Positions 36,001-39,000 of a DNA stretch of 64,000 bases are shown piece after piece; position 1 is the first letter of the stretch, and the number at the start of each line of letters is the position of its first letter. Origin of the DNA: Trypanosoma brucei (lineage: Eukaryota); assembly GCA_000002445.1 (NCBI GenBank), contig CH464491.1, forward strand, positions 4,832,001-4,896,000. The letters are read 5' to 3'. A program made the position numbers.

Positions 36001-39000
36001 GTTTTCTCTGTGCTGGCGTTAGCTTGTTTATGCCAGTCCCTTCGAGCCTTGGAGGCTTCGGCGATGCCAGTAGCTGTTCGGCTGCCTTCTTCCAGTCTCC
36101 CCAGAACTCTTCATAACCCTTTTTGCCCTGGCCCGCTTCCTCCGCCGTGTTGTGGTTTTTTTTTTTGGAGTTTCGTTTGTGTAAAACATCTTTTGCCATT
36201 CATCGCTCGAAGACGTTAAATTGAGCTGCTGTACGAAGTCGTAGTCGTCAGACGTAATCGCTGGTTCAGGTGGCACATTGATATCTCCTTCCGCTAGAGC
36301 TACAATTCCGCAGAGCGGCTGTACGCTTCTCTGTTGCCGCCTACAGTTACATCGTCGGCACTTTGAGCCAGTTTGACGGACAGAGCTAGCAAGATTAATA
36401 GCTGTTTGTACATTGGTTTTGGAAATTGGTCTACTTTTGCTGCATTTAGAATGAATATATATGGCGGTGAAGGTTTTTCTGTAGAGACTGTGGCATACAA
36501 GTTCGAAGATATGAATTTGAGGCTCTTCATTTGATTGTAGATGGTCTGCTATTGACTGCTACTCCTTTAAAGCATCTTTTGGGCAGTCAAACGTAGCCCA
36601 GTGTCTTCCAGATACTGCAGTAATCTGGGCTTTTGGTTGGCCATTACGACGAACAGGGTTGATTCTTTGTAGATGTATATAGTCCTGCAATGCAATGTGA
36701 TGGAAAGTGATCACATCCTGGTGGTTTCTCAGAAAACGACTTAGAGGTCTTTTTATATGCATCACGTAACGACAATCTTGCATATCCACAGTTAACAATC
36801 CCTCAAATTTCAATTTATTCCTTATGACTTCTCCAACCATAATGTCTTCATTGAGGACTATAAAATCAATATATGATTCGAAATTTCTGAATTTGATTGG
36901 TGACTTTACTAATTTTTTCAGAGGTTTATAATTTACAATTTCCTAAGCCACATCCTTAGATAGTGTAGAAGCATAACCAATAGTATGCCATGCAATTTCA
37001 CCACTAAAATCTTTATAGTATCCAACTGCTCTCCCCATATTCAATTTTTTTCTTAGTAATACTTCAAGGTACTGCAAATACAATGGCACTCTCATAAATA
37101 TATCATTATTTACTTTCATTATATAGGAACTATTTTTAGAAAATATCTCAGCTGCAAACTTGAACCACAGACATGTTTTTCTACTCATCGTGAGCTCTGC
37201 CTCCAAACCCCAATTACCCGCATCTCCAAATTTTCTTATTTTTTGTTGGGTTGGCGTCACAAACAGGTAAAATAATAATATCCTGATTTATATATCTTTT
37301 TTTCCAACACTTTCTCTCAGCTCGCAATTGTTATTTGTATGGGGTGAAATAACATATACTACAATCAACTTTCCCAGTAAAATTATTTGATTTCCTTGCC
37401 ACTTCAGGATAACTCCGACAAGTTTCTCTTTGTAAGTTCCGCCTTCTGAACCTTTCATCATTATCTATGGAAGGTATTCCAGCCACAACCAAATAATCTC
37501 TGGTTTTCCAAATCCTCTTCACATCTTGCGAAACAAATGCCATATACTCATTTTCAACGATTTCAAGTGAAATAGGATCTCCTTCACCAAGCAAGCTATG
37601 GAGCGATACAAATAAATTAATCCCCATAACTATAAAAGGTAAACAACAAAGTGCTGCATTAATACTTCCCATATTCTTCATAACGTACTATTTCCATTAT
37701 AATAAAAATCTTTCAATGCTTTAGAAAAATTAGAAAGTTTAAGAAAAGAAGTAAGTTGTGTCACTAAGATTATTAGGTAAGAAATAGTGTCGACACATAT
37801 AACCAGTGCATTGTTATTTTTATGATATATGTGTTAAACTGCGTATGCTCACGCTGTTCGACTTGTATTTAAACTAACGCCTACGGGCATTGGCTTAAAA
37901 ATTGTTTCTATCCAGACGTTCTGCCGCACAATGCGTGTATTCCGCTTACCGCTTGCTTTCCTCAAAAGTATTTTCTATTAACTGTTAGTGGACTTTCAGT
38001 ATATAGTTGAACTTACGCGGGGAGCGTGCCATTAATTTTGCCACTTGCCAGTAAAAGGTACTCCAGAAACCCGCTTGCCTAACGTTTTCATCCTAGTGGC
38101 ACCTCAACTGCATCTCTTACTGTTTACGGTAACTTGTGGGTTTTTTTGGTTGCACACTGAACTACGCCTCTTCTTAATTGTATGATTCATCATATCCTTG
38201 TCTGTTACGATGCTCATTGTTGCATTCTTGCTTGAGGATGCCCATATTCCATCTCTTCTCTGTGTCTCTTCTAATAATATTTCTTGTGCCGCTGGAGCCG
38301 CCCACCTACTCCAATTTAAGCTTTTACAGTCGTCGTAACTCTTCGATTTGCGGTTGTGAGCATATACTTACCGCCGCTCTTATTATAGTATTTGTATATG
38401 CACACTCACAACACTCTCCTATCATTGTTATCATTATTATTATTATCACTATAATTACTATTAATTTTATTACTGCTCTTATGATAATATTCGTATATAC
38501 ACATATTCACATCTTTCTCCTATTATTATCGTCATTATTACTCTTACTCTTGCACTTTCTATTGTAAACTTAACTTATGTTCATGAAATAGTTTTTAAAA
38601 AAATTATAAATATTTCATAATAGAACCCATTTGCCTACCATATTACCATATTACCATAATACTTTCTCTCATAGGCTAGTTTGATACCAAAATATTATAT
38701 TTTTAAAATTCTCAAAATTGTCAGCAATCTGCAAAGGTTTTACAAAAAGTATTAAAAAATATCAATCTTTAGAAAATTTAGAAAAACTTCTTAAAGTACC
38801 AAAATGCTACTAAACTCACAAAAGCAGAAACAATCAGAGCGAATTTTTGACGTAGAAAAAAACTGGAATCCTTGCAGTTTTTTTTTCCCATTTTCAGTTA
38901 TTGTCTTTATCGCAAGCATTTTTGTCTGTTCCATGTTTTGCACATTTCTCTTCCTTCTTTCTATCTTTCCCATCTTTCCCTCCTGTTTCTTTTTCTGCTT

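What the first reader, a model, noticed from the sequence alone, without database searches (positions are those of the whole stretch)
36559..38550. beta-1,3-glycosyltransferase-like pseudogenes sit in the co-transposed region between 70-bp repeats and VSG (also 950-3000)
Two paralogous beta3GT-like genes (950-2053 and 36559-37681; each about 370 codons, with a type-II anchor, an RRxLQRExCW motif and a degenerate DxD box, DCN or NND) each lie immediately downstream of 70-bp repeats and about 150 bp upstream of a VSG start. In both cases the aspartates of the DxD box are substituted. That points either to long-standing pseudogenes or to a catalytically dead lineage carried passively along with VSG cassettes. 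A glycosyltransferase as VSG-cassette cargo is not part of the textbook cassette description.
Basis: partly seen in the sequence, partly recalled or inferred. Interest (0 to 1): 0.55.

Follow-up and report, generated by a model that had tools for sequence, protein, structure and literature searches.

The report
Dead glycosyltransferase genes inside VSG cassettes
Two broken copies of a trypanosome sugar-transferase gene sit between the 70-bp repeat and the surface-antigen (VSG) gene in a Trypanosoma brucei-type subtelomeric array; they are real and recently inactivated, but belong to an already reported class of subtelomeric glycosyltransferase pseudogenes.

Summary
[quoted passage not shown] Each lies on the VSG strand, 700-875 bp after a 70-bp repeat and 145 bp (B) or 440 bp (A) before a B-type VSG pseudogene. 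Both are pseudogenes. A has a stop at codon 2 plus 2-nt and 19-nt deletions. B has three frameshifts and one stop. The catalytic DDD is DCN in A and NND in B. A third paralogue in a T. equiperdum contig has the same layout.

dN/dS among the three copies is 0.17-0.20, with a clear third-position excess of changes. All disabling lesions are copy-specific, and every relative covering the motif keeps DDD. So these are fairly recent, independent inactivations of once-constrained genes, not long-standing pseudogenes or a dead lineage.

The position is weak evidence of 'cargo', because most free space in a cassette lies between the 70-bp repeat and the VSG. The downstream VSGs and the flanks are unrelated. 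Subtelomeric GT pseudogenes are already reported for T. brucei and T. evansi. Ordinary, low-to-moderate interest.

The parts
36559..37681 (-). GT67 (beta3GT-superfamily) glycosyltransferase pseudogene, copy B. Lesions: +1 frameshift near 37369, -1 near 37293, +1 near 37229, TAG at 36945-36943. CW changed to CR. DDD changed to NND at 37110-37102.
   Evidence: Pfam Galactosyl_T 15.0 bits, below the cutoff of 23
37682..37829 (-). 5' flank of copy B that still aligns with the 5' flanks of copy A and the T. equiperdum copy (63-65% identity). It contains a pyrimidine-rich tract followed by AG, which I read as the former trans-splice acceptor region (inference).
   Evidence: sequence read
38380..38560 (-). 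70-bp repeat: one good unit with the core GAGAGTGTTGTGAGTGTG at 38401-38418, plus one degenerate unit. It lies upstream of copy B on the VSG strand.
35063..36413 (-). B-type VSG pseudogene downstream of copy B. ATG at 36413, stop after 38 codons, and the frame resumes in ORF 35063-36199.
   Evidence: (VSG_B E=2e-44)
950..2077 (-). GT67 glycosyltransferase pseudogene, copy A. Ancestral ATG at 2077 followed by TAG. 2-nt deletion near 1998, 19-nt deletion near 1912, then 319 open codons (1909-950). DDD changed to DCN at 1528-1520.
2929..3005 (-). Single 70-bp repeat unit upstream of copy A (core at 2950-2967).
1..509 (-). 5' part of a B-type VSG pseudogene downstream of copy A. ATG at 509, in-frame stop at codon 42, cut by the window edge.
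   Evidence: VSG_B E=7e-15

Best explanation
Both loci are inactivated copies of a Trypanozoon-specific, subtelomere-resident subfamily of the GT67 (beta3GT-superfamily) UDP-Gal/UDP-GlcNAc-dependent Golgi glycosyltransferases. They sit inside VSG-array cassettes, in the spacer between the 70-bp repeat and the VSG, on the VSG strand.

Shown:
- homology to the family;
- paralogy of the two copies;
- multiple copy-specific disabling lesions;
- loss of the metal and UDP-sugar-binding DDD;
- the same 70-bp repeat, GT, VSG order in three diverged copies.

Inferred:
- The paralogues diverged while encoding functional enzymes, because dN/dS is about 0.18.
- Each copy was then disabled separately and fairly recently, within at most about 20% of its branch.
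- They now make no enzyme and are neutral passengers.
- If a downstream VSG, or part of it, were copied into an expression site by gene conversion starting in the 70-bp repeat, the GT remnant would be carried along like any co-transposed sequence.
- Their position needs no special mechanism. The 70-bp-to-VSG spacer is where nearly all non-VSG space in a cassette lies.
For: [quoted passage not shown] A profile search finds the family across Trypanosoma.
- Family assignment: relatives pass Pfam Galactosyl_T. The profile aligns its DDD to the DDD of human B3GNT2, though weakly (E=0.018). The T. brucei family is assigned to GT67 in PMC8477195.
- Pseudogene status: frames and lesions.
- Selection signature: Nei-Gojobori (NG86) dN/dS of 0.172, 0.197 and 0.186. 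Codon-position mismatches are 43/36/77, 54/30/85 and 49/27/78, with p=1e-4 to 1e-6. The 5' flank identity of 0.63-0.65 is close to the third-position identity of 0.65-0.68.
- DDD is retained in all relatives that cover the motif.
- Third instance: T. equiperdum CZPT02000575.1 has a 70-bp repeat at 8449-8511, a GT pseudogene at 9357-10534 and VSG_B at 10849-12240.
- Geometry: from the VSG 3' 16-mer to the next 70-bp repeat is 170-415 bp. From the 70-bp repeat to the VSG ATG is 560-2440 bp.
- Literature: subtelomeric GT genes and pseudogenes are reported in PMC2854126 and PMC4288722.
Against: - B's three frameshifts are single-base indels in short homopolymer runs and could be long-read assembly errors. 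The TAG, the W-to-R change and NND in B are substitutions or longer deletions and cannot be, nor can A's TAG and its 2-nt and 19-nt deletions.
- Purifying selection on genes located in arrays that are regarded as transcriptionally silent is not explained. The copies may have been constrained elsewhere and moved in, or may have been refreshed by gene conversion from expressed paralogues.
- The survey is tiny: three copies, and one has a 94-N scaffold gap between the GT and the VSG.
- The window copies themselves fail the Pfam gathering score.
Confidence: 0.85

Rival explanations
1. Long-standing pseudogenes, or a catalytically dead lineage, duplicated passively with VSG cassettes. The GT died once, early, and every copy descends from that dead copy.
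For: Both window copies and the T. equiperdum copy have a damaged DDD (DCN, NND, NDD). B and the T. equiperdum copy share the first D-to-N change and the A-to-V change just before it. Every annotated member of the close subfamily in TREU927 is a truncated ORF of 177-345 aa.
Against: dN/dS is 0.17-0.20 with strong codon-position periodicity. No shared frameshift or stop exists among the copies. P0001-P0006, P0009 and P0010 all keep DDD. The downstream VSGs and the outer flanks are unrelated.
Confidence: 0.05
2. Functional cargo, at least formerly. A GT67 subfamily was maintained by selection inside VSG cassettes and was co-transposed with the VSG into expression sites. A VSG switch could then bring a matching glycosyltransferase, like an ESAG within the co-transposed region.
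For: The order and orientation 70-bp repeat, about 0.7-0.9 kb spacer, GT, 0.15-0.44 kb, VSG are the same in three paralogues that are only 75-77% identical. There is a purifying-selection signature. The proximal 5' flank is conserved and carries a pyrimidine tract. All three partner VSGs are B-type.
Against: The position is expected from cassette geometry. Three of three B-type VSGs is not significant against a background of about 50-60% in this window. All copies seen are dead, and so are the adjacent VSGs. [quoted passage not shown]
Confidence: 0.08
3. Intact genes that only look broken because of assembly errors.
For: The three frameshifts in copy B are 1-nt indels in short A or T runs.
Against: B also has a TAG substitution, CW changed to CR and NND. 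A has TAG at codon 2, 2-nt and 19-nt deletions and DCN. The neighbouring VSGs are pseudogenes too.
Confidence: 0.02

Closest known systems
[quoted passage not shown]
   Same: Clear sequence homology: 37-38% identity to the chromosome 4 tandem genes P0007 and P0008. Same length of about 375 codons. Short cytoplasmic tail plus a type II signal anchor. Shared RRxLQRxTCW and GNWG.EAE..MSRK motifs and the position of the DDD box.
   Different: The window copies are broken ORFs with DCN or NND in place of DDD. They lie in a VSG array rather than at a core locus. They belong to a separate subfamily whose members are 53-72% identical to each other.
Annotated subtelomeric GT fragments of T. brucei TREU927 and T. 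equiperdum (CAJ16295, Tb10.v4.0188, Tb11.0740, Tb11.1160, Tb11.1840, XP_803396, XP_844696, XP_827740, TEOVI_000654800)
   Same: These are the closest relatives, at 53-72% amino-acid identity. All are truncated ORFs of 177-345 aa. The one whose context could be fetched shows the same 70-bp repeat, GT, VSG layout.
   Different: They are paralogues, not the same loci, with nucleotide identity of only about 75-77% where measured. They retain DDD, whereas the window copies have lost it.
Other non-VSG passengers downstream of 70-bp repeats (ingi elements, VSG pseudogenes and ESAG3 pseudogenes in some Lister 427 expression sites; PMC2567434)
   Same: [quoted passage not shown]
   Different: Those cases are in telomeric expression sites and involve other gene families. 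These are in silent arrays and involve a glycosyltransferase.
Animal GT31 beta3-glycosyltransferases (e.g. human B3GNT2, PDB 6WMM)
   Same: The profile aligns over the DxD segment, YimKadddiF to FVFKGDDDVF. A presumed common GT-A fold and the ancestral relationship are stated in PMC8477195.
   Different: The match is only marginal in sequence (E=0.018). The CAZy family is different (GT31 versus GT67).

Membership tests
GT67 / beta3GT superfamily (Pfam Galactosyl_T PF01762) | Significant sequence similarity to characterised or annotated family members | tested here: met
   E=7e-121 to 2e-37 to T. brucei and T. theileri GTs; tblastn E down to 8e-126; profile hits across Trypanosoma.
GT67 / beta3GT superfamily (Pfam Galactosyl_T PF01762) | Pfam PF01762 match above the gathering score (23 bits) | tested here: not met
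   frameshift-corrected copy B scores 15.0 bits and copy A has no hit. Relatives P0001, P0002, P0004 and P0007 score 23.6-32.1 bits. The matched profile segment spans the DxD box, which is mutated here.
GT67 / beta3GT superfamily (Pfam Galactosyl_T PF01762) | DxD (DDD) metal and nucleotide-sugar binding motif | tested here: not met
   A has DCN, B has NND and the T. equiperdum copy has NDD. All relatives covering the motif have DDD.
GT67 / beta3GT superfamily (Pfam Galactosyl_T PF01762) | Type II membrane topology (short N-terminal tail plus one signal anchor) | tested here: met
   B: MKNMGSIN followed by AALCCLPFIVMGINLFVSL, hydropathy 2.23. A has an equivalent segment only in the ancestral frame, and it is disrupted by a TAG and a 2-nt deletion.
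GT67 / beta3GT superfamily (Pfam Galactosyl_T PF01762) | Intact open reading frame or enzyme activity | tested here: not met
   A has one stop and two frameshifting deletions. B has three frameshifts and one stop. Activity itself cannot be tested here.
T. brucei VSG array cassette | 70-bp repeat upstream of the VSG on the same strand | tested here: met
   Cores at 2950-2967 (-) and 38401-38418 (-). There are 23 such cores in the window, in tandem at 74-81 bp spacing where multiple.
T. brucei VSG array cassette | VSG coding sequence downstream | tested here: met
   Pfam VSG_B: 35063-36199 at E=2e-44; 3-509 at E=7e-15. Both carry premature stops.
T. brucei VSG array cassette | GT-like sequence as a regular constituent of the 70-bp-to-VSG spacer | tested here: not met
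   Six other spacers in the window (560-1840 bp) show no GT similarity, even at E<=1, and no DNA similarity to the GT-bearing spacers.

The most novel reading that the evidence does not exclude
A Trypanozoon-specific GT67 subfamily was, until recently, functional cargo of VSG cassettes. It was kept under purifying selection while sitting between the 70-bp repeat and the VSG, so it was co-transposed and co-expressed with particular (B-type?) VSGs in the expression site. A coat switch could then bring its own glycan-elaborating enzyme. The copies seen here would be decayed relics of that system.
Probability: 0.08. Interest if true: 0.6.

Novelty: already known. Interest (0 to 1): 0.25.

Why it matters
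As it stands this is an annotation-level result. GT67 pseudogenes are a recognised minor component of T. brucei-group subtelomeres, and these two copies add nothing functional.

Two small points may be worth a specialist's attention:
- The copies carry a clear purifying-selection signature, although they sit in arrays regarded as silent. That bears on how, or from where, subtelomeric non-VSG genes are maintained or replenished.
- Three diverged paralogues share the order 70-bp repeat, GT, VSG. If a genome-wide survey showed this exceeds what geometry predicts, a non-VSG gene family would have been propagated, and possibly expressed, as part of the transposable VSG unit.

Tried and rejected
- Genomic context of the closest TREU927 relatives: the look-up of encoding contigs found no record for P0002, P0003 or P0006. 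Only the T. equiperdum fragment P0011 gave a contig. A genome-wide survey was therefore not possible with these tools.
- Source of the window: exact look-ups of two intact VSG ORFs found nothing. The strain remains unknown. The T. brucei group is inferred from the 70-bp repeats, ingi elements and VSG domains. [quoted passage not shown]
- GT remnants in the other six 70-bp-to-VSG spacers of the window: none by tblastn at E<=1 or by word-7 blastn. The generic spacer is therefore not a decayed GT.
- Co-duplication of GT plus VSG units: the three downstream VSGs show no tblastx similarity. The spacers on both sides of the GT are unalignable, apart from about 150 bp next to the ATG.
- The abrupt end of DNA homology near codon 295 looked like a shared recombination breakpoint. 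The protein alignment shows instead that the C-terminal tail is a fast-evolving but homologous region, with HHI...Y...W..F.C conserved.
- Single-sequence search of PDB: no hit. The profile search gave only a marginal B3GNT2 hit.
- Literature: no paper in the library combines 'co-transposed region' with glycosyltransferase, or TbGT with subtelomeric.

Full report
**Setting.** The window is a Trypanosoma brucei-group subtelomeric VSG array.
- Pfam finds VSG_B, A-type VSG (Trypan_glycop) and VSG C-terminal domains in most long ORFs.
- Two ingi-type retroelements lie at 9799-13973 and 47052-50724 (reverse transcriptase, RNase H, zinc finger, endonuclease).
- The core of the 70-bp repeat, GAGAGTGTTGTGAGTGTG, occurs 23 times with up to 3 mismatches. 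It is always on the strand of the neighbouring VSGs, and in tandem at 74-81 bp spacing where multiple.
- Cassettes run on the minus strand up to about 51 kb and on the plus strand from about 53 kb.

**The observation.** Both GT-like sequences are on the minus strand.
- Copy A has a 319-codon open stretch (1909-950) preceded by a damaged N-terminus.
- Copy B (37681-36559) is split into three ORF pieces.
- The same query hits full-length chromosome 4 GTs at 38% identity and T. theileri GTs at 33-35%.
- tblastn of all these proteins against the window gives exactly two loci.
- A and B align at 74.7% identity over 1080 nt.
- The family is the one placed in CAZy GT67 and derived from a beta3GT ancestor (PMC8477195).
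- Relatives pass Pfam Galactosyl_T (23.6-32.1 bits against a cutoff of 23). Corrected copy B scores only 15.0 bits and copy A scores nothing, because the matched segment spans the mutated DxD.
- A profile of the family aligns its DDD with the DDD of human B3GNT2, though marginally (E=0.018).

**Anatomy and lesions**.
- Copy A: the ancestral ATG is at 2077, not 2053, and is followed immediately by TAG. A 2-nt deletion near 1998 lies at the end of the anchor. A 19-nt deletion near 1912 follows, and the rest is open. DDD is DCN at 1528-1520. RRNLQRENCW is intact.
- Copy B: the anchor is intact (MKNMGSIN followed by AALCCLPFIVMGINLFVSL, hydropathy 2.23). Frameshifts lie near 37369 (+1), 37293 (-1) and 37229 (+1). 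A TAG lies at 36945-36943. RRNLQRETCR has W changed to R. DDD is NND at 37110-37102.
- None of the frameshifts or stops is shared between A and B, or with the third copy described below.
- In the protein alignment, every relative covering the motif keeps DDD: P0001-P0006, P0009, P0010, P0007, P0008, P0012 and P0013.

**Position.**
- Copy B: 70-bp repeat at about 38380-38560; 699 bp spacer; GT; 145 bp; VSG ATG at 36413. The VSG is B-type (E=2e-44) and is itself a pseudogene.
- Copy A: 70-bp unit at 2929-3005; about 850 bp spacer; GT; 440 bp; VSG ATG at 509. The VSG is B-type (E=7e-15) with a stop at codon 42.

**A third, independent instance.** The only close relative whose DNA could be fetched is a T. 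equiperdum fragment on CZPT02000575.1.
- It shows a 70-bp unit at 8449-8511, an 846-bp spacer and a frameshifted, stop-containing GT at 9357-10534 whose DxD is NDD.
- About 250-315 bp further on, across a 94-N scaffold gap, lies a B-type VSG at 10849-12240.
- It is 75-77% identical in DNA to both window copies, so it is a third paralogue.

**How old is the decay?** I computed Nei-Gojobori (NG86) estimates over about 238 shared codons.
- dN/dS is 0.172 (A-B), 0.197 (A-C) and 0.186 (B-C), at dS of 0.79-0.87. C is the T. equiperdum copy.
- Mismatches by codon position are 43/36/77, 54/30/85 and 49/27/78 (chi-square p=1e-4, 1e-6 and 3e-6).
- Identity of the alignable 5' flank (0.63-0.65) matches third-position identity (0.65-0.68).
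- Neutral decay is blind to codon position, so most of the divergence between these paralogues accumulated under protein-level constraint.
- Three-taxon branch arithmetic on the values gives a dN/dS ratio (omega) of about 0.16-0.21 per branch. At most about a fifth of each branch can have been neutral.
- The three or four disabling lesions per 1.1 kb fit that rough estimate (inference).
- The 'long-standing pseudogene' and 'dead lineage' readings are therefore not supported. The shared D-to-N change in B and the T. equiperdum copy is the only hint of a common defect.

**Is the position meaningful?**
- In this window, the distance from a VSG's 3' 16-mer to the next 70-bp repeat is 170-415 bp.
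- The distance from the 70-bp repeat to the VSG ATG is 560-2440 bp.
- Roughly 80-90% of non-VSG space in a cassette is thus the 70-bp-to-VSG spacer. Any embedded element is expected there, and an ingi element sits in such a spacer too.
- The six other spacers contain no GT trace.
- The outer flanks of the three GT copies are unalignable.
- The three partner VSGs are mutually unrelated by tblastx.
- All three partner VSGs are B-type, but about half the VSGs in the window are, so this is not significant.
- There is thus no evidence of recent GT+VSG co-duplication, and no statistical evidence for a special association. Ancient co-duplication followed by neutral flank decay and VSG replacement cannot be excluded.

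**Literature.**
- Jackson et al. 2010 list glycosyltransferases as 1.1% and 1.5% of subtelomeric genes in T. b. brucei and T. b. gambiense, 'prominent features in both genomes' (PMC2854126).
- Carnes et al. 2015 report multiple UDP-Gal/UDP-GlcNAc GT pseudogenes. They state that T. brucei GTs are frequently subtelomeric and variable among strains (PMC4288722).
- Duncan et al. 2021 count 19 GT67 genes 'excluding predicted pseudogenes' (PMC8477195).
- Hertz-Fowler et al. [quoted passage not shown] A few also carry an ingi element, a VSG pseudogene or an ESAG3 pseudogene (PMC2567434).
- No paper in the searchable library links a glycosyltransferase to the co-transposed region.

**Verdict.**
- The finding is real and its description is largely accurate.
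- The best explanation is two recently and independently inactivated members of a known subtelomeric GT67 subfamily, riding as passengers in VSG cassettes.
- What remains unexplained is why genes in nominally silent arrays show a purifying-selection signature. Possible answers are past expression, origin from expressed loci, or gene conversion from functional paralogues.
- The most novel reading not excluded is formerly functional, co-transposed GT cargo. I put it at about 8%.

Noticed in passing
window 9799-13973 (+), with the 70-bp core at 16042-16059 (-): An ingi-type retroelement with long open ORFs: 752 aa with reverse transcriptase, 222 aa with RNase H, and 437 aa with C2H2 zinc fingers. 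It lies on the opposite strand, inside what looks like the 70-bp-to-VSG spacer of a minus-strand cassette. This is another example of a passenger occupying that spacer.
   Followed up: partly
window 47052-50724 (+): A second, more degraded ingi-like element: an endonuclease fragment at 47052-48176 and a reverse transcriptase fragment at 48705-49178.
   Followed up: partly
window about 50883-53025: The array orientation switches here. The last minus-strand 70-bp core is at 50883-50900 and the first plus-strand cores are at 53008-53106, so the two blocks of cassettes point away from each other.
   Followed up: no
window 18710-20224 (-), 32556-33833 (-), 25723-26574 (-), 42013-42735 (-): Long ORFs (504, 425, 283 and 240 aa) sit where VSGs are expected but give no Pfam hit at E<=0.001. 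The 504-aa ORF is also not present as an exact sequence in the protein collection. They may be divergent VSGs or other array genes.
   Followed up: partly
proteins P0001-P0006, P0009-P0011 (T. brucei TREU927, T. equiperdum): Every annotated member of the close GT subfamily is a truncated ORF of 177-345 aa, against about 375 aa for full length. Several start at the Met just before DDD (MKADDDIF...). The whole subfamily may be pseudogenised in the reference strain while still keeping DDD.
   Followed up: partly
L001 10686-10779: A 94-N scaffold gap lies between the T. equiperdum GT pseudogene and the VSG that follows. The adjacency in that contig therefore rests on scaffolding.
   Followed up: yes
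window 1-509, 35063-36413; L001 10849-12240: All three VSGs that follow a GT pseudogene are B-type (VSG_B), yet they show no similarity to each other by tblastx. With about half the window's VSGs being B-type, this is not significant, but it would be easy to test genome-wide.
   Followed up: partly
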